A stretch of 64,000 nucleotides of DNA from a phage. Shown piece by piece: positions 35,340 through 63,508 of this stretch. The stretch lies in sequence record PZ445515.1; one strand, 5' to 3'. How positions within the stretch are numbered: position 1 is the first letter of the stretch; each line of letters starts with the position of its first letter. The translations under genes were made by a program, and so were the position numbers. The notes under the pieces are model-generated. The model had not been told where the DNA came from. It was given only the letters and a program-made list of their open reading frames with translations, and did no database searches.

Positions 35340-36038
35340 ATGAGGATTATTTCTAAGTTCGCCGATGTGTATGACTTGCAGAACAGTTTGTTCGACCCAG
35401 ATCGTGTTTGGGAACGTAAAACTGAAGAGTTGCTGGTCAAAGTAACCGATGATGCAGAAAAGAACATTGTGCATACTCGCCAGGTATTTCGTGATGGTTC
35501 GCTATCTTTCCGTGGTGATTTCGAATATTTTGTAAACCCACTATTTGTTGCAGGTGAAGTTTACTGGTTACACGAGCTGTACTGCTGGCATCCAGCATTT
35601 AGCTTCAAAACGTTCAACCTCGACACTATGTTCGATAAAATGGAAGAGATGGGATTGCATGCTCGCTCTTATTTAATGGATAAGAGTCGCGGAGATGTTC
35701 GTGAAACAATGCGTGATTTGCTCGCGGAAGCAAAACCTAAAGCAGAACGTATCTTATCCGAACTGCGTGTACCGATTGCATATGTGAAAGGTATTAAAAA
35801 GAACGATAACGATGATGTTCGTAACTTCGTGATTCAGACTAACATTCGTTTCCATCAATCAGGTATTCCGTGGCAGGAAATTGAAAGTAACTTATACCGT
35901 TTACACCAAGTTCTCGAACAGTATATCTTTGGAGTACTAGGAACTGGTGAGCCTGATATGATTAAAGTATCAGATAAAGACAGGTTAGCAGCGCATGGAT
36001 TTGATACAAAAACTTCTTTCAGGAATATGGCACGGTAA
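35340..36038 (+). CDS. hypothetical protein
   Basis: 232 aa ORF. Confidence 0.6.
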   Translation: MRIISKFADVYDLQNSLFDPDRVWERKTEELLVKVTDDAEKNIVHTRQVFRDGSLSFRGDFEYFVNPLFVAGEVYWLHELYCWHPAFSFKTFNLDTMFDKMEEMGLHARSYLMDKSRGDVRETMRDLLAEAKPKAERILSELRVPIAYVKGIKKNDNDDVRNFVIQTNIRFHQSGIPWQEIESNLYRLHQVLEQYIFGVLGTGEPDMIKVSDKDRLAAHGFDTKTSFRNMAR

Positions 36039-36444
36039 GTGGTATATCCTGGGAGCAGGTCTAGCGATAGGCATCGGATTCGGTGCTTATCACTTAGTAG
36101 ATAAAGTGGAGACTTTAGCGGGAGATCTTGCAGTAGCTACTAAAAAGATCTCTTCTCTAGAGACTTCCCTTAATAAGGTGAAAGCTGAAAGTGAACTTCG
36201 TGAGACTAGAATGAATCAGTATTTCACGATGAATAATATTTCTCAAGCAGATCTAGACAAAAAGATTAAGCAGCTAGATAAAGCTCTTAGTCGTCAAGAT
36301 GTTATCGCTGCAAAACCTGGATTGGTAACATTGATTGCTAAAAAGCAGAATAAAGAGTTCGAGGAAAGATTAGCGTGTTTAACTGGAAACTTGGAGTACT
36401 GCTCGCAGCCACAATCACAATCACAGGCTGTGCAGAAGAAATAA
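35995..36444 (+). CDS. putative i-spanin-like protein (N-terminal TM plus coiled coil)
   Basis: 149 aa; single N-terminal TM helix, periplasmic coiled-coil region; next gene is an overlapping lipoprotein. Confidence 0.4.
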   Translation: MDLIQKLLSGIWHGKWYILGAGLAIGIGFGAYHLVDKVETLAGDLAVATKKISSLETSLNKVKAESELRETRMNQYFTMNNISQADLDKKIKQLDKALSRQDVIAAKPGLVTLIAKKQNKEFEERLACLTGNLEYCSQPQSQSQAVQKK

Positions 36445-36728
36445 AACCAGAGCCATCTCATGAGTTAAAGCAAGCTCATGTAGACTGGCCTAAAGGACTT
36501 CAACCTTGTAGCTTTGACTTTAAGTTTGAAAAGAAATTAGCTACAAATGGAGAAGATGGCGTAGTAGTTGTTATACCATACAAAGATTGGAATGCAAAAG
36601 CAAAATGTGAGGAAGCAGTTTACTCTTACATTTCACGACTGACTGGTATGGTCTGCTTCTATCGTCAAGATTTACAAGAAAAACGTTGCTTAGTTTACTA
36701 TCCACCAATTAACAATAGGAAAGATTAA
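36375..36728 (+). CDS. putative o-spanin-like outer-membrane lipoprotein
   Basis: 117 aa, GTG start; signal peptide with lipobox ITGC; 5' end overlaps upstream gene in another frame. Confidence 0.4.
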   Translation: MFNWKLGVLLAATITITGCAEEIKPEPSHELKQAHVDWPKGLQPCSFDFKFEKKLATNGEDGVVVVIPYKDWNAKAKCEEAVYSYISRLTGMVCFYRQDLQEKRCLVYYPPINNRKD

Positions 36729-37480
36729 TGTCAGTATTAGTCGGTTTACATGGTGAAGCTGGTTCGGGAAAAGATACCGTTGCAAAATTAATTATCGATT
36801 GGTGTAATGACACGTATCCAACGTGTTTATCTCGTCGTTATAGTTTTGCTAAGCCCGTTTATGAACTTGCATCCGTAATCCTCGGTGTAACTCCAGAGTT
36901 TCTAGGAGAGCGCAGGGGAAAAGAGATTGACCAATGGTTTACGGTCACACAATCTCAGTTGGAACGAGCCAGGGATGTGTGGTTTAAGTACGGTATCGAT
37001 AAGTTTGAAGACTTCTCGTACGTTTGGCCTATTTTTGAGGAAAAATATCTTAATCCTCAACAACTTATATCAGAGAATAAAGAAGACGGTCTTTATAGCT
37101 TATTTATTTCTCCGAGAAAAATGTTACAGCTCGTAGGGACAGAGCTAGGAAGGCAGCTGGTGCATGAACGCATTTGGCTCATAATTCTGGAGCAATCCAT
37201 CGCTAAAGACGACCCAGATGTCGCCGTAATAACAGATGTTAGATTCCCCAATGAAGGAGAGTTACTCAGAGAAACAAACCATTTAGATATGGATTCTTTG
37301 ATAGTAAATGTAGTACCCGCTGAGCAGAAGTTCACTATTAAATCAGATCATCCATCTGAAAGTGGTATTCCTGCAAAATATATTACTCACGAATTAGTTA
37401 ATAAATTCGATGGTATCAATAACCTTAAACTAGAAGTTTATAACTTCTGTGACTTAGAGCTAGAACCACTAGTTGGATAA
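36728..37480 (+). CDS. dnk: deoxynucleoside monophosphate kinase
   Basis: 250 aa; P-loop GEAGSGKDT; size and position as in T5-like phages. Confidence 0.7.
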   Translation: MSVLVGLHGEAGSGKDTVAKLIIDWCNDTYPTCLSRRYSFAKPVYELASVILGVTPEFLGERRGKEIDQWFTVTQSQLERARDVWFKYGIDKFEDFSYVWPIFEEKYLNPQQLISENKEDGLYSLFISPRKMLQLVGTELGRQLVHERIWLIILEQSIAKDDPDVAVITDVRFPNEGELLRETNHLDMDSLIVNVVPAEQKFTIKSDHPSESGIPAKYITHELVNKFDGINNLKLEVYNFCDLELEPLVG

Positions 37481-37492
37481 TCAAGGATCACT

Positions 37493-38092
37493 ATGACTAA
37501 TAAAAAAGAAGAAAAGACTAACCTGTTTCACTCCATTCGCCAATCTAATGAGTATACCTTTTTCTTTGATGAAGAATTAGGCCCGCCGGATGAATACCGT
37601 GATTTATCAATGGTACTTATGCAAGCAAATGAGGACGACGAAATTAATCTGATGATTAATGGCCCTGGTGGTTATGTTGATACTGCTGCACAGTTATCTA
37701 ACTTAATTGCTAATTGCCGTGGAACAGTTATAGGACATCTGGTTGGTCCTAGTGCTTCTGCTTACTGCACAATTTTCCTATCCTGTCATGGGTGGGTAGT
37801 ACATCCACATGCTACGCTAATGGGACACACGTTCTCTGGCGGATTCTGTGAGAAGGGTCAAGAAATCAAGAAAGCCTATGAATCTTACAACAAGTTCGTA
37901 GAAGATATGATGCTAGATGTCTACTATCCGTTTTTCTCAATAGACGAAATCGATGAGATGGTAAAAGACAACAAAAATATCTATCTAGATAGCAAAGAAA
38001 TCCATAAGCGTATTGAAATCTTGGCAAAATATCGATCTGAGCAGTATAATAAAGCCCAGTTACCTCAATCAGAGGAGCATAAAGAAGAGTAA
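37493..38092 (+). CDS. ClpP-like serine protease
   Basis: 199 aa; INGPGGYV, GPSASA (Ser) and VVHPH (His) resemble ClpP catalytic motifs. Confidence 0.6.
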   Translation: MTNKKEEKTNLFHSIRQSNEYTFFFDEELGPPDEYRDLSMVLMQANEDDEINLMINGPGGYVDTAAQLSNLIANCRGTVIGHLVGPSASAYCTIFLSCHGWVVHPHATLMGHTFSGGFCEKGQEIKKAYESYNKFVEDMMLDVYYPFFSIDEIDEMVKDNKNIYLDSKEIHKRIEILAKYRSEQYNKAQLPQSEEHKEE

Positions 38093-38100
38093 GTAGTTTT

Positions 38101-38133
38101 AAGCCAGGGTTTAACGACCCTGGCTTTTCTTTT
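38101..38133 (+). terminator. rho-independent terminator
   Basis: Hairpin aagccagggt...accctggctt followed by TTCTTTTAT. Confidence 0.7.
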
Positions 38134-38196
38134 ATCTAAAATTCTTCTTGACAACGACAAAATTTTGTGCTCCAAAGAAAATCTTTAAAAACACAT

Positions 38197-38224
38197 TGTA
38201 ATTTTCCTCCAAAATTAGTATAAT
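38197..38224 (+). promoter_or_regulatory. sigma70-type promoter upstream of lysis genes
   Basis: TTGTAA -35, 17 bp, TATAAT -10; also TTGACA at 38148. Confidence 0.4.
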
Positions 38225-38248
38225 GGTACTGGTTAGAGGAGGTTACAA

Positions 38249-38905
38249 TTGGAAAAGTTCTTACAATTATTAACGGTACTGCTCCAAGAAGCGAAAGATC
38301 CAGCATCGCTTCTTAAACGTCTGCTAACTATCTTAGTTGCTGTCATTATTTTCTTATTTGTTAGTAATACTAGCGAGGTGATGTCATTCTTAAAGACTTT
38401 CTCCACGTCTGCGGTTCTACAGGATGTTCAAACTCAAAGGATAGATAACTTTCCTAATGTAGCTAGAGAAAAGAGCATGGTACTCTTTTCTCAAACGGGT
38501 GCGGATGCTGTTTTTGTAGTCAAGTATAAACCCGATGCCATTAATGATTATTCTAACATTATTGCATGGGAAAGCAATGCGCAATTAGATAGGGCTGACT
38601 TGGCCGATAAAGCAGTAAATAAAACGTCTGAGCTATACAGACGTCACTTAGAGGGCTTTAACTACGCATCGGATTTAAGTGTAAGAGTAAATAAATATAC
38701 GGGGTTAAATATACCTGCGTTTAAGAACGTTACTTTTAATTACATATACACTTGTCCATATTTCAATCTAAACAATATCTATGCTGGATATATTGGTATT
38801 GCTTGGAAAGATAATCCTGTAGATGCAGCCGATTCTGAGAAATTTAAGGAATATTTAACAAAGCTCTGTTCCCCACAACAGAGATCTTTAGGTAGATCAA
38901 TATGA
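38249..38905 (+). CDS. holin (T4 T-type, single TM with large periplasmic domain)
   Basis: 218 aa; one N-terminal TM helix; immediately upstream of endolysin with 4-nt overlap; TTG start after GAGGAGG. Confidence 0.7.
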   Translation: MEKFLQLLTVLLQEAKDPASLLKRLLTILVAVIIFLFVSNTSEVMSFLKTFSTSAVLQDVQTQRIDNFPNVAREKSMVLFSQTGADAVFVVKYKPDAINDYSNIIAWESNAQLDRADLADKAVNKTSELYRRHLEGFNYASDLSVRVNKYTGLNIPAFKNVTFNYIYTCPYFNLNNIYAGYIGIAWKDNPVDAADSEKFKEYLTKLCSPQQRSLGRSI

Positions 38906-39315
38906 GTTTTAAATTTGGTAAAAATAGCGAAAAACAATTAGCTACCGTTAAGCCAGAGCTACAAAAAGTAGCTCGTAGAGCTTTAGAATTATCTCCATAT
39001 GATTTCACGATCGTACAGGGTATTCGTACAGTAGCACAAAGTGCCCAGAATATTGCTAATGGTACTTCATTTTTAAAAGATCCTAGTAAAAGCAAGCATA
39101 TTACTGGGGATGCCCTTGATTTTGCTCCATACATTAATGGCAAAATTGATTGGAATGATTTAGAAGCATTTTGGGCAGTTAAAAAGGCTTTTGAACAAGC
39201 GGGTAAAGAACTAGGCATTAAACTTCGTTTTGGTGCTGATTGGAATGCTTCGGGAGATTATCACGACGAAATAAAACGTGGTACCTATGATGGCGGTCAT
39301 GTCGAACTAGTTTAA
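38902..39315 (+). CDS. endolysin, L-alanyl-D-glutamate peptidase (M15 family)
   Basis: 137 aa; SKHITGDALD matches S-x-H-x-x-G-x-A-x-D zinc-binding motif; size as T5 endolysin. Confidence 0.85.
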   Translation: MSFKFGKNSEKQLATVKPELQKVARRALELSPYDFTIVQGIRTVAQSAQNIANGTSFLKDPSKSKHITGDALDFAPYINGKIDWNDLEAFWAVKKAFEQAGKELGIKLRFGADWNASGDYHDEIKRGTYDGGHVELV

Positions 39316-39326
39316 TTAATAACTGA

Positions 39327-39349
39327 GGCGGGAATATTCCCGCCTTTTT
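39327..39349 (+). terminator. rho-independent terminator
   Basis: Hairpin ggcggga-atat-tcccgcc followed by TTTTTA. Confidence 0.75.
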
Positions 39350-39392
39350 AGGCAAAGGGGGCTTTAATAATTTTTGAAGATAGGAGAAAGCC

Positions 39393-39809
39393 ATGTTTGC
39401 AGAACTATTCACTATGATGCTGCTAGGTATCTGGAAAATAAGTCTAGTAGTATTCGTTTTAATGATAGTCTTTACTATCATTGCATTAACTACCCGAAAT
39501 AGCTTATTAATAAAGGTTATTCACGGACTAGAGTATATAATTATGGGTTCATTCGGCGTTTGTAAATGCAATTGCCATAGAGATACGAAATATTGTTGGT
39601 TATGGATGGAACTAGAGAATCCTATATCCATAGCTTTGGCTGTTTCATTCGGTATGATTCTTATGGCCCTTACTCTAGCATTAATACCTTTGATGTTAGC
39701 TGGGGGAGTTACAGCGTATTTCACCCTTTTCTCCCCGATACTTATGTACTCAATTTACCCAATAACTATGTATCTAGTTAGGAAAAAATTTATACATGCA
39801 GTAGATTAA
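39393..39809 (+). CDS. hypothetical membrane protein
   Basis: 138 aa, several hydrophobic segments. Confidence 0.5.
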   Translation: MFAELFTMMLLGIWKISLVVFVLMIVFTIIALTTRNSLLIKVIHGLEYIIMGSFGVCKCNCHRDTKYCWLWMELENPISIALAVSFGMILMALTLALIPLMLAGGVTAYFTLFSPILMYSIYPITMYLVRKKFIHAVD

Positions 39810-47118: not shown

Positions 47119-47401
47119 CTATATTATATGGTCAAATCCATTAGCAGCACTTAGTAACAAACTATTTAAAACAACATGGGGCTATAATGAAATAGAATTA
47201 AGCAGCCGCCCCATACCAAATACATGCTCTCTAGTCCCAGATCTGTATAAAGTAGTAATAAATAACGTAGAATATTTGGTTGACGAATTTGACAGAAGGT
47301 ATATACTAGAGTGCATTTATGATAACAATACATCAATGAATGAATTGATAGATCATGCCCAAATGTGTGATAAAAGCTGGATGTTAGTATGGAAATCATA
47401 G
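47111..47401 (+). CDS. hypothetical protein
   Basis: 96 aa ORF, GTG start. Confidence 0.4.
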   Translation: MSSYIIWSNPLAALSNKLFKTTWGYNEIELSSRPIPNTCSLVPDLYKVVINNVEYLVDEFDRRYILECIYDNNTSMNELIDHAQMCDKSWMLVWKS

Positions 47402-47622
47402 CAATTATTTTAGTAGTTATGTTATTCATCGTAGTACTTGTATCTTTTGCTATTATGCGTAGAGCCAGAGAATTAGCAGAAGATGTAGTAAAATTACGTG
47501 GTGAGGTAGCGGGGCTCAAACTACAACGTGAAGCTCTCAAGCTATTCGTAGCTCAAGGTAGTGTAGAGCATACAGCAGAAGACTTCATCGTATATCTTAA
47601 ACGTTACATGGGAATCAAATAA
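47389..47622 (+). CDS. hypothetical membrane protein
   Basis: 77 aa, N-terminal TM. Confidence 0.5.
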   Translation: MEIIAIILVVMLFIVVLVSFAIMRRARELAEDVVKLRGEVAGLKLQREALKLFVAQGSVEHTAEDFIVYLKRYMGIK

Positions 47623-47807
47623 TGGAAACTCTTTTTCTTTTAATGCTCGTAGGTTCTCTGTTACTAATACTAGCACTTCTACTAATCTGCAACATTCTTA
47701 ACAACAAGAATCTAGAGTTAAAGTGTGAGAACCAAATCCTTAACCGTGAACTTAAACAATATAATCTAGCAGCCCATAAACTGTTAGACAAACTGGAGAA
47801 TAAATAA
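47622..47807 (+). CDS. hypothetical membrane protein
   Basis: 61 aa, N-terminal TM. Confidence 0.45.
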   Translation: METLFLLMLVGSLLLILALLLICNILNNKNLELKCENQILNRELKQYNLAAHKLLDKLENK

Positions 47808-57163: not shown

Positions 57164-58834
57164 ATGATTATTTCCGCAGAAAAACAAACCGTTATCCTGA
57201 AAATGGCCGCTGACTTTAATTTCTATGGTAAACGTCTGCGCGCTACTAAACTGGAAGTCTGCGACGATATATCAAAAGCGGTCTACGATACAACGAAACA
57301 TTCAACCGCTATCTGCGACTGGCTGGAAGCAAATAAACCAGTTAAACCAAAAGCGGCAAAAGTAGCAAAAGCCATTAAAAACGATGAGCGCCCCGAAGCG
57401 GCGGGGATTGTTTCTAGTACCGTGGAACAGTGGGAAGTAAAACAAGGTAAACGCTTTATTATTACGTCGATTCAGAATAATACTTTCCCGCATAAAAACT
57501 TTTTAGCATCACTGGAGCAATTTGCTAAATATATCGGTGCTGATTTGCTTGTTTCTAAGTATATTTATAATAAAAACGGATTCCAAAATGGAGAAGGTGC
57601 GGATGGAATCAAATATGATTCCGCTTTTGATAAATATATTTGCAGCAAAAACGTGTTTTTAAATAACCGCCGTTTTGCTTTCATGGCTGAAATTAATGTT
57701 TTGCCAACCGCAGATTATCCGCTTTCAGGATTCGCAGAAACTGCAACCGCGCTCAATATTGAGGGGCTTGCGATTGGTCACGCTAAAATTACCGCTGAAA
57801 GTGTGCCAGCTTTAAAAGGTGAAGTAGTGCGCCGCATGTATTCAACCGGAACGGCAACCCTCAAAAACTACATTCAGCAGAAAGCAGGACAAAAAGCGGA
57901 AGCACTGCATAACTTCGGCGCGCTGATTGTTGAGTTCGACGAGGACGGGGAATTTTTTGTACGCCAGCTTGAAACAATGGACGAAAGCGGGGTGTTTTAT
58001 GATCTGAACGTTTGCGCTACTCCTGCCGGATGCTATGAAACATCGGGGCATGTTTTAGGCTTGCAATATGGCGATATTCATGCGGAAAAATTAGATGAGG
58101 AGTGCGCCGCCGCATCTTGGGGGCATGGCGATACTTATGGGCTTGTGGATATTCTTAAACCAAAATATCAGTTTGTACATGACGTGCATGATTTTACATC
58201 CCGCAACCATCATAACCGCGCATCCGGTGTATTCCTAGCAAAACAGTACGCCGCAGGACGTGATAAAGTTCTGGATGATCTTATCGACACGGGGCGCGTG
58301 CTGGAATCAATGGAACGCGATTTTAGTCAAACGATTATCGTAGAATCTAACCATGATCTAGCGTTATCCCGTTGGCTTGATGATCGTAATGCTAACATCA
58401 AGGACGATCCCGCGAACGCGGAACTATATCACCGCCTGAATGCTGCAATTTACGCGGCAATCGGTGAACACGACGAAACGTTCAACGTGCTAGATTATGC
58501 CTTGCGTAACGTCGCAGGTTGCGAGTTTAACGCCATTTTCCTGACCACTGACCAATCTTTCAAGATTGCAGGCATTGAATGCGGCGTACACGGTCACAAC
58601 GGCATTAACGGGAGCCGTGGCAATCCTAAACAATTTAAGAAATTGGGCAAGTTAAACACGGGGCATACGCATACCGCCAGTATTTACGGCGGCGTATACA
58701 CCGCTGGCGTAGCGGGTAGTCTGGATATGGGTTACAACGTTGGCGCGTCAAGCTGGACGCAAACGCATTTAATTACCTATGCAAACGGCCAGCGCACTTT
58801 GATTGACTTTAAGAATGGTAAATTCTTTGCGTAA
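57164..58834 (+). CDS. A1: pre-early protein A1-like (metallophosphatase-fold, host takeover)
   Basis: 556 aa, same length as T5 A1; GDIH, GHGD, SNHD, GHTH metallophosphatase-like motifs; followed by A2- and dmp-like genes. Confidence 0.7.
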   Translation: MIISAEKQTVILKMAADFNFYGKRLRATKLEVCDDISKAVYDTTKHSTAICDWLEANKPVKPKAAKVAKAIKNDERPEAAGIVSSTVEQWEVKQGKRFIITSIQNNTFPHKNFLASLEQFAKYIGADLLVSKYIYNKNGFQNGEGADGIKYDSAFDKYICSKNVFLNNRRFAFMAEINVLPTADYPLSGFAETATALNIEGLAIGHAKITAESVPALKGEVVRRMYSTGTATLKNYIQQKAGQKAEALHNFGALIVEFDEDGEFFVRQLETMDESGVFYDLNVCATPAGCYETSGHVLGLQYGDIHAEKLDEECAAASWGHGDTYGLVDILKPKYQFVHDVHDFTSRNHHNRASGVFLAKQYAAGRDKVLDDLIDTGRVLESMERDFSQTIIVESNHDLALSRWLDDRNANIKDDPANAELYHRLNAAIYAAIGEHDETFNVLDYALRNVAGCEFNAIFLTTDQSFKIAGIECGVHGHNGINGSRGNPKQFKKLGKLNTGHTHTASIYGGVYTAGVAGSLDMGYNVGASSWTQTHLITYANGQRTLIDFKNGKFFA

Positions 58835-59657: not shown

Positions 59658-60392
59658 ATGAATAAAGCTATTATGAATATTTCCCGCAGCTTCCCGCATA
59701 TTTCCCGCGTCATGATTTGGGATTTAGACGGCACTATCGTTAATTCTTTCCATCGTGTAGCGCCTTGCTTTGATAATGAGGGCAATTTAGATTTAAATAA
59801 GTATAAGAATGAAGCGTGTAAACATCATTTAATAATGCAGGATACTTTATTACCATTGGTTGAATACATGCGCCAGTGCATGAATGACGCAAATACTTTA
59901 AACATTATTTGCACCGCTCGACTAATGAGCAAGTCGGACTATTATTATTTGCGCAAACAAGGCTTGCGCGGTCGTGGTAATAGTAATATCCGCGTGTTTT
60001 CCCGTGATACACTGCATAAATATTTTGAGGCTGATAAAGTTAGCGAAATATACCACAGCAAGGACGCAGTATATAAATCTTATTATTTTGAATTATTTAA
60101 ACAACTATATCCGAACGCTGATTTTACAATGATTGATGATCATAAAGGCGTGCTATCGGCGGCGGCATCATACGGATTTAAAACGCTGGACGCGCAAGCC
60201 GTTAACGATATTCTATCAATCGGCGTGGCATTAATAGGTGAAACCTTTATTGATGAATCCCTCGATGATGATAATGATTATCAATTCCTAGCTGACCGTT
60301 TGAAATTATGTTGGGAAGGTATGACCGAGGAAGAACGCGCAGAATATAGTTGCAGCCCGCAACAATATATTGAGAAATTAAAAGTTGCGTAA
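59658..60392 (+). CDS. dmp: 5'-deoxyribonucleotidase (HAD family)
   Basis: 244 aa; HAD motif I IWDLDGT and later DD motif; position next to A1/A2. Confidence 0.65.
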   Translation: MNKAIMNISRSFPHISRVMIWDLDGTIVNSFHRVAPCFDNEGNLDLNKYKNEACKHHLIMQDTLLPLVEYMRQCMNDANTLNIICTARLMSKSDYYYLRKQGLRGRGNSNIRVFSRDTLHKYFEADKVSEIYHSKDAVYKSYYFELFKQLYPNADFTMIDDHKGVLSAAASYGFKTLDAQAVNDILSIGVALIGETFIDESLDDDNDYQFLADRLKLCWEGMTEEERAEYSCSPQQYIEKLKVA

Positions 60393-60409
60393 TAATTAAA
60401 GTTAAAATA

Positions 60410-60446
60410 GTTTCATCCTGCAATTAAAATGGTTGCAGGATGAAAC
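60410..60446. terminator. bidirectional hairpin terminator
   Basis: 14-bp stem gtttcatcctgcaa/ttgcaggatgaaac between convergent dmp and minus-strand operon; T-run on minus side. Confidence 0.6.
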
Positions 60447-60556
60447 AGTTACCCTGCTAATAGTAACGGGGGTGGCGGTTAGCAGACTAAGTATTCTCCC
60501 CCAACCCACTGGACACACCTCCATGTGTAATCTTATGAAATTTGGCAAAAGTCAAA

Positions 60557-60802
60557 TTAGCGCATAGAATGGTCATCAAACCTGTGTTCTGGTCTGAACT
60601 CACGGAATCTCTTCCGCGACGCCCGAGATCCGTCCGACCACTCCCGCTCAAACTCCGCACGTTTCTCGTCAAACTTCCGCTCCCTTTCCGCAATCTCCCG
60701 CGATACTTCCGCAATATATTTACGATGCTTGTTGATTGCCGCAGTTGTCCCGAAAACTCCCGCAAGTATCCCGATAATAAAAGCAATTACAATACTAAAC
60801 AT
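60557..60802 (-). CDS. hypothetical membrane-anchored protein
   Basis: 81 aa, N-terminal TM then charged tail. Confidence 0.5.
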   Translation of the reverse strand: MFSIVIAFIIGILAGVFGTTAAINKHRKYIAEVSREIAERERKFDEKRAEFEREWSDGSRASRKRFREFRPEHRFDDHSMR

Positions 60803-60989
60803 CTAATTCCCTCTCAATTTGCAGAATACGGGTGCTATCACAACGTTGCAGTAGTACTAACTTTTCTAGAATAACTTGTTGTTGTTTCACCTGAGCTTCT
60901 AGAGTTTTTAGGCGGAGATACACGATACGAGAGACAATGAGGATTACCCAGACTAATATTACTATTAGTGTAATTCCCACTTCCATCAT
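60795..60989 (-). CDS. hypothetical membrane protein
   Basis: 64 aa, N-terminal TM. Confidence 0.45.
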   Translation of the reverse strand: MMEVGITLIVILVWVILIVSRIVYLRLKTLEAQVKQQQVILEKLVLLQRCDSTRILQIERELDV

Positions 60990-61093
60990 TTACGTTTCTC
61001 CGATAGTAAGGTTTCGATTCTAGCTAAGTGATTATCTAAAATACATTGTCCAATAATCACAATCCCCAGTAATGCAATAATTACCCATTCCAT
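60986..61093 (-). CDS. hypothetical small membrane peptide
   Basis: 35 aa hydrophobic ORF, ATGA-type overlaps both sides. Confidence 0.3.
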   Translation of the reverse strand: MEWVIIALLGIVIIGQCILDNHLARIETLLSEKRK

Positions 61094-61221
61094 TAAATCC
61101 ACCCCGCCATAGCTGCTAACCAAAAACCTACGAAAATAAAGAATAAGATAGTTCCGAATCCAAAACTATTTATCCAGCTATCATATACCTCTCCACGTCT
61201 GGTCTTTCTTTTATTTGACAT
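61093..61221 (-). CDS. hypothetical small membrane peptide
   Basis: 42 aa ORF, basic N-terminus then TM. Confidence 0.3.
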   Translation of the reverse strand: MSNKRKTRRGEVYDSWINSFGFGTILFFIFVGFWLAAMAGWI

Positions 61222-61398
61222 ATCTTTCTTGCTCCAATAAATATGATATTTTAAATTATTTTATAATTTGTGCATAACCAACCATGCTTGTGACTTCCTA
61301 GAAGGACTTCTACTTTTCTTACATAGTGGTTTCTGCCAATATACCATCCAAAAAATAAAAAATTTAGTTTACTTGGATGTCTTTTTGCTTTATACTAA

Positions 61399-61665
61399 TT
61401 ACAGGTAGTTAGATTGCTCTAGTTTAAATTTACAATCACCATATTTAAGGTCAAACTGACTGAGATCCCACCATCCAAACTTAGTACGGAGCTGTACTAC
61501 TGGGAAGCGATCTCCCTTAATACGAACTTTTTGAACCTTGAGGCCGTAATGTTCTTCTCCCGCACCACCAAAAGATTTTACAAATCCAGTACAAAATGGT
61601 TTGGGAGCAGGTGCACAACCAGATAACATAACTGCGGCAACTAGTGCAATCACAAACTTTTTCAT
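61399..61665 (-). CDS. llp: Llp-like lipoprotein (receptor-blocking superinfection-exclusion candidate)
   Basis: 88 aa; signal peptide with lipobox LSGC; divergently adjacent to pb5-like gene as in T5 llp/oad. Confidence 0.6.
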   Translation of the reverse strand: MKKFVIALVAAVMLSGCAPAPKPFCTGFVKSFGGAGEEHYGLKVQKVRIKGDRFPVVQLRTKFGWWDLSQFDLKYGDCKFKLEQSNYL

Positions 61666-61750
61666 ATTTATCTCTCCATTTCTAATTTATGAGTATATTA
61701 TAGCAAAATAGAGAGATGAAAGCAAATACATTTTTATAATAGGAGATTAT

Positions 61751-63508
61751 ATGGGTTTTTTCGCTGGAAAATATAGCGATGGTAAGACCGTACTATCTTT
61801 AAATACTGAATCTGGTGGTGACATTAACCGTCACTATAGTCCAAATAATAATAGTATTTTTCATAGTGATATGCCATTTGTCCTAGTTGATGGTACCTAT
61901 GAGGCGGGACTAGGTAATGCTGGCAACGGCTTTTTTGTATGTCAAATGCCCGCTGACATAATAAATATTAAATCTAATGATCCTGGTAGAGTTATACTAA
62001 CTGCTATTGAGATAAATGGTACTCACAGAGCTTTTCTTAATGGTACTCAGAGTAAGGTAGGTCAAACTATAGTTGCTACTCAGGCAGATCCTTTTAGATC
62101 TTTTGCTAGCGTTTCCCAGACTAGTGGATTTGCATTTGGTAATAGCCTGGCATCCGGGACTTATAATTATAACCCATCTATAGGACATGAAGAATCTATC
62201 TCTAGAAATGGTACTGGTGGAACTACCCTACATAGTACTTATCATGGTATAGTTAGGCCAGGTGCAGGAGCTCCAGTAGGTATTACTGTTGCAGAGGCCT
62301 TTGCACAGTTAGGATTCCCTACTAATAGTAGTACAGTACCTATAGATGGTAATAACCAATATTACTGGGACCCGGGATGGATGTCTCCTTTAGGGTCAGC
62401 ACACAGAGGGCACGATTGGTTTTATGTTTGTAACTCTAACATACGTGGGTATGGTGGGGTAAGACAAGGTCTTCCTGGTAGTGTAAATACTATGTACCAC
62501 GATGGGGGTAACAGATTTGTTTGCAGGGGTTCTACAACTAATTTAGCTAACCAATCTGGTAACGCTACAATATTACAGGATTGGTATAACATAACTCCTA
62601 CTAAAGTTATTTGGTACGTTTTGAATTTAAGATACTCAAATGGTGGTATGAGTATCTCTGGTAATCCTTTTACGGGTTCAGATATTCTTATATCTCCTTC
62701 TAATTTCATAATTAAAGGGGTTAGTCTTCCCAATACGGGTTATAAGTTTATTAATCAGAACGCTTTCGGTAACTTAGGTTATAGACCAGATATGGAATAC
62801 ATTGGAAATAACGCAGCATACACTGGGGCCTTTGGGGATACCACTGCAAGATGTGAACTTGTAGGTTCTAGTAATGGGAGTTTATGGTCTCCTGTGGACT
62901 ACGGAGGGGCTAAGTCTCAAATTAGTATTTACAAATTCGGAGCTGGTAAGCAATGGTACGTAAACTCTAATGATAATACTATCGGTAATGAACACGGGGT
63001 TGTTTGGGGGCCTTCAGCAGTTCCACTACGACTTTTTAGCGGAAATGTTGGTAGTTCTTACATGGGGGATGATATTACTCCCAGCTATCCAGGAACTGGA
63101 GATAGATACGTTGGTTTATCAACTATTGGGCTAGGTATACCGAGTGGCAATGCTACAGTAATTCTTACCACTGAAGTTATATCAGGTAACCTTAACTGTG
63201 CAGGTGTTCCTGCTAATACATGGAATAACGGTGTGTTTCAAGTGCAAGGAAGAAGAGCATATAGTTATAGTAATGGAGACGCGATATTCCACCAGATTTT
63301 AACATTACCAGTAGGGTATTTAGTACCTTTTCATACTACATCTGCTTTTAGATACACACCTAACAATGCCCTAAGTAGAAATAGTTTTATATATACTGCT
63401 AAAAATCTAGGAAATGGAAATGTAGAGTTAGGGGTAGTTATGCACGTAAGTTTAGGTAGCGCAGTTTTCCTACCTAGACTAAGAGTAACAGTTCAACGCC
63501 TTACCTAA
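61751..63508 (+). CDS. oad: receptor-binding tail protein pb5-like
   Basis: 585 aa, G/N/S/T-rich; AGGAG RBS; paired with llp-like lipoprotein gene. Confidence 0.55.

What the first reader, a model, noticed from the sequence alone, without database searches (positions are those of the whole stretch)
60557..61221. Four consecutive tiny membrane proteins co-transcribed downstream of llp
Minus-strand ORFs of 42, 35, 64 and 81 aa each have one predicted TM helix and are linked by TAATG/ATGA overlaps, ending at the bidirectional terminator. Being in the same transcription unit as the superinfection-exclusion lipoprotein, they are candidates for additional envelope-level exclusion, lysis timing or lysis inhibition.
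Basis: inference. Interest (0 to 1): 0.4.

Follow-up and report, generated by a model that had tools for sequence, protein, structure and literature searches.

The report
Known T5 small membrane-protein gene string
The four tiny genes are real, conserved single-helix membrane proteins already annotated in phage T5 (T5.159–T5.162). Their function is still unknown, and they probably face the cell interior rather than the outer envelope.

Summary
Four minus-strand ORFs of 42, 35, 64 and 81 aa (61221→60557) each carry one strongly hydrophobic helix and a Shine-Dalgarno-like motif. They are joined by 1-, 4- and 8-nt stop/start overlaps.

The window is a T5-like phage (Tequintavirus). The ORFs are orthologues of T5.159–T5.162, annotated in T5 as "contains single transmembrane domain". 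They evolve under purifying selection (dN/dS 0.13–0.37).

- **Distribution:** o42, o35 and o81 occur in all 28 compared loci. By tblastn, o42 (448 records) and o81 (444) are in about as many records as close A1 homologues (442). o64 is a cassette found in under half (194), and some relatives add a 51-aa paralogue of o35.
- **Homology:** none outside T5-like phages.
- **Transcription:** co-transcription with llp is plausible here (no terminator, no good internal promoter) but unproven. T5 itself has a promoter-like site before T5.159.
- **Terminator:** it looks unidirectional.
- **Topology:** charge distribution predicts cytoplasm-facing tails, which argues against Llp-like action in the outer envelope.
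- **Lysis genes:** holin, endolysin and both spanins lie 21 kb away.
- **Knock-down:** in T5 it gave no fitness effect.

Ordinary and already annotated, with function open. My best guess is an accessory inner-membrane module, possibly blocking superinfecting DNA entry.

The parts
61093..61221 (-). o42 = orthologue of T5.159. 42 aa: basic N-terminal 20 residues (5 K/R), then a C-terminal TM helix that ends the protein (tail-anchored; predicted N-in).
   Evidence: PHROG 8596, E 9e-32; dN/dS 0.13; 448 phage records
60986..61093 (-). o35 = orthologue of T5.160. 35 aa: TM helix at the extreme N-terminus, then a short amphipathic basic tail (..LARIETLLSEKRK). Starts within the TAATG overlap with o42.
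   Evidence: PHROG 6369, E 4e-26; dN/dS 0.20
60795..60989 (-). o64 = orthologue of T5.161. 64 aa: N-terminal TM helix plus a heptad-like helical tail. A facultative cassette, absent in 7 of 28 loci by precise ATG-to-ATG excision.
   Evidence: PHROG 5851, E 7.5e-31; 194 records
60557..60802 (-). o81 = orthologue of T5.162. 81 aa: N-terminal TM helix plus a highly charged helix (18 K/R in 62 residues). The last ~14 residues are variable or disordered.
   Evidence: PHROG 6447, E 6e-48; 444 records; AF2: one helix, residues 2-69
61399..61665 (-). llp-type receptor-blocking lipoprotein (88 aa, lipobox LSGC). Not homologous to the 77-aa T5 Llp. Diverges from the 585-aa receptor-binding protein gene at 61751-63508 (+).
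   Evidence: PHROG 1119; LPAM_1 above cut-off
61697..61725 (-). Probable llp promoter: TTGCTT, 17 nt, TATAAT, with a TG extension. It is the only strong candidate start for a transcript covering llp and the four genes in this clade.
   Evidence: read directly from the sequence; the T5 record annotates a promoter at the equivalent place; inference
61222..61398 (-). 177-nt llp-o42 spacer. No intrinsic-terminator-like hairpin, only weak promoter-like matches. It contains the 9-codon remnant (61256-61285) of a further small ORF that is 37-66 aa in Epseptimavirus-type relatives.
60394..60446 (-). Probable intrinsic terminator of the string: 14-bp perfect stem (60410-60446) followed by UAUUUUAACUUUAAUU. 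Structure is kept in relatives through two different hairpin sequences and compensatory changes. It lies inside the terminal repeat.
60515..60515 (.). Boundary of the long terminal repeat by homology to T5. The T5 right repeat starts 42 nt after the T5.162 stop. The repeat extends to lower window coordinates.

Best explanation
The four ORFs are the window's copies of T5.159-T5.162. They form a translationally coupled, modular string of very small bitopic inner-membrane proteins, and they are accessory genes of the Markadamsvirinae backbone.

Shown:
- They are genuine genes under purifying selection.
- o42, o35 and o81 are present in all 28 compared loci. By tblastn, o42 and o81 occur in about as many phage records as close A1 homologues. 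o64 and a 51-aa paralogue of o35 come and go as exact cassettes that always restore the overlapping stop/start junction.
- The family has no relatives outside T5-like phages.

Inferred:
- In this clade they are most likely made from the llp transcript (extended -10 promoter at 61697-61725), which ends at the hairpin at 60410-60446. This would give roughly fixed ratios of the four products.
- o42 is tail-anchored with a basic N-terminus in the cytoplasm. o35, o64 and o81 insert N-out/C-in, with their basic helical tails in the cytoplasm. They therefore act at the inner membrane or its cytoplasmic face, probably as a hetero-oligomer.

Committed guess, about 25-30% on its own: together with Llp they form a second, receptor-independent layer of superinfection exclusion or membrane protection. 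They would interfere with DNA translocation or pore formation by an incoming phage at the inner membrane, as the small inner-membrane exclusion proteins of other phages do.

Confidence by sub-claim: real orthologues of T5.159-162 about 0.97; co-transcribed with llp in this phage about 0.6; cytoplasm-facing topology about 0.7; exclusion at the inner membrane about 0.25-0.3. The overall figure given (0.35) is for the whole chain including the functional guess.
For: Identity and synteny with T5.159-162.

Coding signal: dN/dS 0.13-0.37 and third-position excess.

Distribution: 444 records for o81, 448 for o42 and 194 for o64, against 442 records with A1 at 80% identity or more.

Coupled junctions: 80 of 81 overlap, and cassette indels are precise.

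Hydrophobic helices and charge asymmetry: 0 K/R on the short side against 4-18 on the tail side. AF2 models o81 as one long helix.

Transcription: no terminator and no promoter of at least 9/12 in the llp-o42 gap of this clade. A structurally conserved hairpin with a U-tail follows o81. In Bas33 RNA-seq at 20 min, llp has TPM 219/127, the o51 homologue 162/137 and the o64 homologue 462/408. Nothing is seen when only first-step-transfer DNA is expressed.

The string is shared by phages with unrelated llp/RBP modules, so any function is receptor-independent.

Architectural analogues (N-terminal TM plus coiled coil) sit at the same position in Sugarlandvirus and Myunavirus.

From my own knowledge, not tested here: T4 Imm, P22 SieA and HK97 gp15 are small inner-membrane proteins that block DNA entry.
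Against: - No functional datum links these genes to exclusion.
- CRISPRi-ART knock-down of T5.159-162 scored 'Not Fit', meaning no measurable effect on T5 (PMC11879866, supplementary file 16). llp and several structural genes also scored 'Not Fit', so that screen is insensitive for such genes.
- T5-type loci carry their own promoter-like site, so linkage to llp expression may not be general.
- The Bas33 RNA-seq analysis was not strand-specific. The 108- and 129-bp genes got about 1 TPM and o81 only 22/13, so the counts are unreliable at this scale.
- Topology is predicted only from the positive-inside rule. Lambda Rz is an example, from my own knowledge, where a basic post-TM segment is nevertheless periplasmic.
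- Similar small TM plus coiled-coil ORFs occur in the early region of the same genome (47389-47807), so the architecture is not specific to the llp neighbourhood.
Confidence: 0.35

Rival explanations
1. Host-takeover or anti-defence microproteins. The cytoplasm-facing tails bind a host inner-membrane machine (divisome FtsL/FtsB/FtsQ, YhcB/LapA-FtsH, Sec/YidC) or a membrane-bound defence effector, and neutralise or redirect it during infection. There is no role in exclusion.
For: - Architecture resembles bitopic coiled-coil regulators. o81 gives sub-threshold matches to LapA_dom (E 1.3e-4, 22.2 bits against cut-off 28), ZapG-like and FtsL.
- Gene content turns over quickly and the family is lineage-restricted, as expected for arms-race genes.
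- PHROG 6447 is filed under 'moron, auxiliary metabolic gene and host takeover'.
- Related small TM plus coiled-coil ORFs lie in the early host-takeover region.
Against: All matches are below the curated cut-offs and reflect composition (a TM helix plus a charged helix). There is no hit in PADLOC or PDB. No partner has been identified. The core genes are highly conserved (o42 dN/dS 0.13), not diversifying.
Confidence: 0.25
2. Lysis-timing regulators. One or more of the proteins bind the class III (T4 T-like) holin in the membrane, or its cytoplasmic N-terminus, and delay or tune triggering.
For: The holin of this phage (38249-38905, PHROG 860) is of the single-TM T-like class. From my own knowledge, T4 regulates that class with small partners (RI, RIII). 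The proteins here are small, membrane-embedded and made in fixed ratios.
Against: The string lies 21 kb from the lysis genes, which form their own units with endolysin and the spanins. There is no similarity to any holin or antiholin family. No lysis-inhibition phenomenon is linked to these genes, and knock-down had no effect.
Confidence: 0.12
3. An independent transcription unit. The string has its own promoter just upstream of o42 and is regulated separately from llp, so the neighbourhood says nothing about function.
For: T5, L019 and L009 have TTTACA/GTTACA-17-TAGAGT/TAGAAT with TG 36 nt before the start. The block conserved across different llp modules begins about 50 nt before the o42 ATG and includes this -10 region. 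In Bas33 the o64 homologue has a higher TPM than llp. In L021 an HNH-type ORF sits between llp and o42.
Against: In the window's own clade the -35 and the TG are lost, and several relatives have no promoter-like match at all. The conserved block can also be explained as the remnant of a decayed upstream ORF. No terminator follows llp.
Confidence: 0.35
4. Spurious or decaying ORFs, made hydrophobic only by the AT-rich composition.
For: About 10% of random small ORFs in this genome reach the same hydrophobicity. Occasional truncations occur: o64 in L014, and an internal deletion of o81 in L027.
Against: Purifying selection, conserved frames, conserved coupled junctions, and presence of o42 and o81 in about 445 genomes each.
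Confidence: 0.02

Closest known systems
T5.159, T5.160, T5.161, T5.162 of bacteriophage T5 (NC_005859/AY543070); PHROGs 8596, 6369, 5851, 6447
   Same: Orthologues. Same order, same lengths (42 [45 from an upstream ATG in T5]/35/64/81 aa), same overlaps and same position between llp and the right terminal repeat; 75-95% amino-acid identity. Annotated in T5 as 'contains single transmembrane domain'.
   Different: The upstream llp/receptor-binding module here is a different, non-homologous type. The T5 promoter-like site before T5.159 is degraded here.
Llp / Cor-type receptor-blocking lipoproteins of T5-like phages
   Same: Adjacent gene on the same strand. Small, envelope-targeted and accessory, with no knock-down effect in the laboratory.
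   Different: None of the four has a lipoprotein signal peptide. They are predicted to sit in the inner membrane facing the cytoplasm. They do not co-vary with the receptor-binding protein.
Small inner-membrane superinfection-exclusion proteins (T4 Imm, P22 SieA, HK97 gp15); comparison from my own knowledge
   Same: Small, phage-encoded, inner-membrane, non-essential, and encoded next to other exclusion functions.
   Different: No sequence relationship was detected. Here there are three to five separate one-helix proteins rather than one. No exclusion phenotype is known.
Bitopic TM plus coiled-coil proteins (FtsL/FtsB, LapA, YhcB/ZapG, i-spanin Rz)
   Same: An N-terminal TM helix followed directly by a long charged or heptad helix. 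Weak profile matches.
   Different: All scores are below the curated cut-offs. The proteins are much shorter. The tails are predicted cytoplasmic, not periplasmic. The genome's true spanin pair is at 35995-36728.

Membership tests
T5.159-T5.162 orthologous groups (PHROG 8596/6369/5851/6447) | Full-length match to the family profile | tested here: met
   E 9e-32, 4e-26, 7.5e-31 and 6e-48, each covering the whole profile
T5.159-T5.162 orthologous groups (PHROG 8596/6369/5851/6447) | Synteny: same strand as and downstream of llp, immediately before the terminal repeat, with overlapping junctions | tested here: met
Llp/Cor receptor-blocking lipoproteins | Signal peptide with a lipobox cysteine | tested here: not met
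   No lipobox in any of the four sequences. LPAM_1 matches only the llp ORF
Llp/Cor receptor-blocking lipoproteins | Inherited together with the cognate receptor-binding protein | tested here: not met
   The string is 75-95% identical in T5, whose llp/RBP module is non-homologous. The homology break lies about 50 nt upstream of o42
Two-component spanins (Rz/Rz1 type) | i-spanin with a large periplasmic coiled-coil domain, paired with an outer-membrane lipoprotein o-spanin | tested here: not met
   No lipoprotein in the string. Tails are 16-62 aa and predicted cytoplasmic. The genome's spanin pair is at 35995-36444 and 36375-36728 (PHROG 739/812)
Holins / antiholins | Similarity to a holin or antiholin family, or placement in the lysis cassette | tested here: not met
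   No such PHROG, Pfam or NCBIfam match. Holin and endolysin are at 38249-39315
Holins / antiholins | Effect on lysis timing | not testable with these tools
   Needs lysis curves of deletion mutants
Inner-membrane superinfection-exclusion proteins (Imm, SieA, gp15 type) | Sequence or profile relationship to a known member | tested here: not met
   Only T5-like phage proteins were found in 5.8e9 and 1.84e9 sequence libraries. No PHROG of that function
Inner-membrane superinfection-exclusion proteins (Imm, SieA, gp15 type) | Inner-membrane location and a block of incoming DNA | not testable with these tools
   Location is predicted from hydrophobicity only. The phenotype needs experiment
LapA / ZapG(YhcB) / FtsL bitopic proteins | Profile score above the curated cut-off | tested here: not met
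   LapA_dom 22.2 bits against 28; ZapG-like 13.8 against 33.5; FtsL 15 against 50
Known anti-phage defence components (PADLOC) | Match to any defence-system model | tested here: not met
   0 families at E up to 0.1

The most novel reading that the evidence does not exclude
The string encodes a hetero-oligomeric micro-complex of one-helix proteins made in fixed ratios. The complex closes the inner membrane to DNA translocation, sealing the phage's own entry channel and excluding later phages regardless of receptor. Its position together with llp as the last unique genes to enter the cell during T5's left-to-right second-step transfer would then act as a built-in timer, so that the door is shut only after the phage's own genome is in. 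Architectural analogues at the same position in Sugarlandvirus and Myunavirus would make this a general Demerecviridae device.
Probability: 0.12. Interest if true: 0.55.

Novelty: already known. Interest (0 to 1): 0.22.

Why it matters
As it stands this is a re-discovery of four annotated hypothetical genes of a classical model phage.

It would matter if a function were found. o42 and o81 are each found in about 445 sequenced T5-like genomes, and o35 in all 28 loci compared. They have no homologues elsewhere and are among the smallest conserved membrane proteins of a well-studied phage. A receptor-independent exclusion or membrane-sealing role would add a second layer to the textbook Llp story. 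It would also be relevant to the design of T5-like phage cocktails.

The useful results here are negative constraints:
- They are not lipoproteins, spanins or holins.
- They are not part of the receptor module.
- They are probably cytoplasm-facing.
- They are dispensable in a laboratory knock-down screen.

Tried and rejected
1. **Spanin reading** (TM plus coiled coil next to a lipoprotein). Rejected: the i-/o-spanin pair, holin and endolysin are at 35995-39315.
2. **Remote homology.** The word-indexed search and the full profile search of 1.84e9 representatives found only T5-like phage proteins. Pfam, NCBIfam, PADLOC and PDB sequence searches gave nothing above cut-off.
3. **Structure.** AF2 of o81 gives a single helix (pLDDT 71). 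I did not run a fold search, because a lone helix gives meaningless matches.
4. **Paralogy.** o64 as a paralogue of o35, and My1_149 as a homologue of o64, were not supported by BLASTP. Only the 51-aa ORF of relatives is clearly a paralogue of o35 (37% identity, identical ends).
5. **Recombination origin of o64-less genomes.** The idea that they arose by recombination between the 'RIE' motifs of o35 and o64 was rejected. The excision is exact from ATG to ATG, and the 34-aa o35 variant also occurs with o64 present.
6. **The conserved block upstream of o42 as a promoter.** This holds only for T5-type loci. In the window's clade it is better explained as the remnant of an upstream ORF.
7. **Rfam scan of 60300-61800.** Nothing found.
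8. **Literature.** No open-access paper mentions T5.159-162 in its text. The phiR2-01 proteomics supplement is not held. HIDEN-SEQ has no T5-like data.

Full report
**What the window is.** The region matches T5-like phages (Demerecviridae, Markadamsvirinae, Tequintavirus) at 92-97% DNA identity. The A1 protein and o42 are 100% identical to Escherichia phage T5_ev212. The local gene order runs as follows:
- plus strand: A1 (57164-58834), two small ORFs, then dmp (59658-60392);
- minus strand, converging on dmp: the four small ORFs and an 88-aa lipoprotein;
- plus strand, diverging from the lipoprotein: the 585-aa receptor-binding protein, 61751-63508.

This is the T5 layout oad / llp / T5.159-T5.162 / right terminal repeat read in reverse. 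By homology the terminal repeat starts at window position 60515, which is 42 nt after the o81 stop.

**Check of the observation.**
- Each has one very hydrophobic 19-residue stretch, with Kyte-Doolittle scores of 2.13-2.80. Only 9.6% of all six-frame ORFs of 30-120 aa in this AT-rich window reach 2.0.
- Each start codon is preceded by a GGAG/GAGG-like motif. The junctions are TAATG, ATGA and ATGTTTAG.
- I compared 28 loci: the window, three GenBank records and 24 IMG/VR contigs.
- Variable sites are concentrated at third codon positions. Pooled dN/dS is 0.13, 0.20, 0.37 and 0.35 for o42, o35, o64 and o81, against 0.18 for llp.
- 80 of 81 gene junctions overlap by 1, 4 or 8 nt.

The ORFs are therefore real genes, and the tight coupling is itself conserved.

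**Identity.** The four proteins match PHROGs 8596, 6369, 5851 and 6447 over their full lengths. They are the orthologues of T5.159-T5.162, which the T5 records annotate as 'hypothetical protein, contains single transmembrane domain'. The finding is thus already present in public annotation. No open-access paper mentions these locus tags in its text.

**How conserved the string is.**
- tblastn finds o81 in 444 phage records, o42 in 448 and o64 in 194. A1 at 80% identity or more is found in 442.
- In the 28 loci the architectures are o42-o35-o64-o81 (17 loci), o42-o35-o81 (7) and o42-o51-o35-o64-o81 (4). Here o51 is a 51-aa paralogue of o35 with identical ends.
- Loss of o64 is an exact ATG-to-ATG excision that recreates a TAATG junction.
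- The last ~14 residues of o81 switch among at least four unrelated sequences. Several of these variants go with HNH-endonuclease-like ORFs inserted just downstream.
- Upstream of o42 the window carries a 9-codon remnant (61256-61285) of a further ORF. That ORF is 37-66 aa in Epseptimavirus-type relatives, and it is fused in frame to o42 in three loci.

The unit is best described as a modular string of three to six micro-genes with a constant core of o42, o35 and o81.

**No relatives elsewhere.** A word-indexed search of 5.8e9 proteins returned 82 hits for o81, all from T5-like phages at 62% identity or more. A profile search of 1.84e9 cluster representatives returned only five, all from the same family. 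Pfam, NCBIfam, PADLOC and PDB sequence searches gave nothing above threshold. The best were LapA_dom at 22.2 bits against a cut-off of 28, and FtsL at 15 against 50. These reflect the shared 'TM helix plus charged helix' composition. AlphaFold2 models o81 as one continuous helix (residues 2-69) with a disordered tail, at pLDDT 71.

**Transcription.**
- *Upstream of llp.* Reading the sequence gives TTGCTT-17-TATAAT with a TG extension at 61697-61725. T5 annotates a promoter at the same place.
- *The 177-nt llp-o42 spacer.* It has no terminator-like hairpin and, in this clade, no promoter reaching 9 of 12 consensus positions. Several relatives have no match at all.
- *T5 and other FhuA-type loci.* These have TTTACA-17-TAGAGT with TG 36 nt before T5.159.
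- *After o81.* The 14-bp hairpin at 60410-60446 (dG -19.6 kcal/mol) is followed by a U-rich tail on the minus-strand transcript only. On the dmp side the hairpin is followed by AGTTACCC, so it does not look bidirectional. Relatives carry two unrelated hairpin sequences at this spot, with compensatory changes, so the structure itself is selected.
- *Expression data from Bas33.* Published RNA-seq at 20 min after infection gives these TPM values (two replicates): llp 219/127, o51 homologue 162/137, o64 homologue 462/408, o81 homologue 22/13, and about 1 for the 108- and 129-bp genes. I mapped genes by order and length. All were about 0 when only first-step-transfer DNA is expressed (PMC13250531). 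That analysis was unstranded and gene-based with 150-nt reads, so these numbers show only that the region is transcribed after second-step transfer.

I rate co-transcription with llp in this phage at about 0.6.

**Topology and what it excludes.**
- o42 has five K/R before a helix that ends the protein.
- o35, o64 and o81 start with the helix, with no positive charge before it, and are followed by 4, 8 and 18 K/R.
- By the positive-inside rule all four should leave at most a few residues in the periplasm and keep their tails in the cytoplasm.
- None has a lipobox.
- The string is 75-95% identical between phages whose llp/receptor-binding modules are unrelated. It is therefore not part of the receptor-specific module.
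- The genome's holin (38249-38905), endolysin (38902-39315) and overlapping i-/o-spanin pair (35995-36728) are 21 kb away. Curators of the relative Sepoy annotated the same arrangement and left the small genes as hypothetical.

Llp-like action in the outer envelope and a core lysis role are therefore unlikely. A regulatory effect on the holin cannot be excluded.

**Functional data.** In the CRISPRi-ART screen of T5, T5.159-162 and llp all scored 'Not Fit' (PMC11879866, supplementary file 16). Knock-down did not measurably impair the phage under laboratory conditions. Several structural genes scored the same, so this is weak evidence for dispensability.

**Most likely mechanism.** I propose an accessory, translationally coupled set of one-helix inner-membrane proteins with cytoplasmic helical tails. 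They probably assemble with each other and are expressed with llp. My committed guess is a receptor-independent second layer of superinfection exclusion or membrane protection at the inner membrane, at about 25-30%. The rivals are modulation of a host inner-membrane machine or defence effector (about 25%) and tuning of the T-like holin (about 12%).

Proteins of the same architecture occupy the same position in a Sugarlandvirus (74 and 153 aa) and in Myunavirus My1 (103 aa), without detectable sequence similarity. Similar small ORFs also occur in the early region of this window. This favours a generic membrane role over an llp-specific one.

**Verdict.** Interest is low. The open point is the unknown function of a core set (o42, o35, o81) that is conserved throughout the compared T5-like phages yet restricted to that lineage.

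Noticed in passing
window 60394-60446 (and L001-L026 equivalents): The hairpin after o81 exists in relatives as two unrelated sequences (GTTTCAYCCTGCAA... and AGTCACGGCATGT...) plus compensatory single changes. All fold to -16 to -30 kcal/mol and all are followed by the same T-rich tract. It lies about 70-105 nt inside the terminal repeat, so a copy also sits at the extreme left end of the virion DNA.
   Followed up: partly
window ~60470-60556: The 41 nt between the o81 stop and the T5-defined repeat boundary (60515) are mostly conserved, especially AAATTTCATAAGATTACACATGGAGGTGT next to the boundary. The first ~45 nt inside the repeat occur as two divergent alleles (GGGTTGGGGGAG.../CCGCCACCCCCG versus GGCCCCCCAGATG...). 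This may be the genome-end recognition region.
   Followed up: no
L013, L016, L018-L021, L023-L025, L027 (downstream of o81); L021 2434-2781: Homing-endonuclease-like ORFs (HNH motifs) are inserted right after o81 in many relatives, and between llp and o42 in L021. Several of the alternative C-terminal tails of o81 go with the insertions after o81.
   Followed up: partly
window 61256-61285 (-): A 9-codon remnant (MVGYAQIIK) of an ORF. The ORF is 18 aa in T5 and 37-66 aa in Epseptimavirus-type loci (MGTSFLLEESGFDEVMDLI...), and it is fused in frame to o42 (63 aa) in L011, L016 and L018.
   Followed up: partly
window 47389-47622 (+) and 47622-47807 (+): Another overlapping pair of small ORFs (77 and 61 aa; PHROGs 6021 and 5799, unknown function) with the same architecture: ME-, an N-terminal TM helix, then a coiled coil. 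The o64 profile hits the first weakly (E 0.0018 among 657 ORFs).
   Followed up: partly
window 61399-61665 (-) and 61751-63508 (+): The llp here is an 88-aa type that blastp (E up to 0.01) does not match in the T5 loci, where Llp is 77 aa. It is paired with a 585-aa receptor-binding protein, against 640 aa in T5. The receptor was not determined.
   Followed up: no
window 61268-61408 (+): A 46-aa plus-strand ORF in the llp-o42 spacer is annotated as a CDS in phage MM-1 (PV577657). It overlaps the llp stop and has no support from other records. It is probably an annotation artefact.
   Followed up: no
L031 11990-12818 (Klebsiella phage GlastoCabaret); L030 2201-2512 (Pectobacterium phage My1): More distant Demerecviridae have, at the same position next to the terminal repeat, unrelated small proteins of the same build: an N-terminal TM helix plus a coiled coil. 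In GlastoCabaret, which also has the adjacent receptor-binding gene, the first gene after the divergent promoter is such a protein (MEVVIGALVLL...) rather than a lipoprotein.
   Followed up: partly
window 35995-39809 (+): The lysis genes of this phage: an overlapping i-/o-spanin pair (35995-36444 and 36375-36728), then dnk and a Clp-like protease, then a T-like holin (38249-38905), endolysin (38902-39315) and a 4-TM protein (39393-39809).
   Followed up: yes
Bas33 RNA-seq table (PMC13250531, supplementary file 2): Adjacent overlapping genes of the string get TPM values from about 1 to about 460. The 108- and 129-bp genes get almost no reads, probably because 150-nt reads cannot be assigned uniquely. 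Per-gene values for micro-genes in that data set should not be used as they stand.
   Followed up: no
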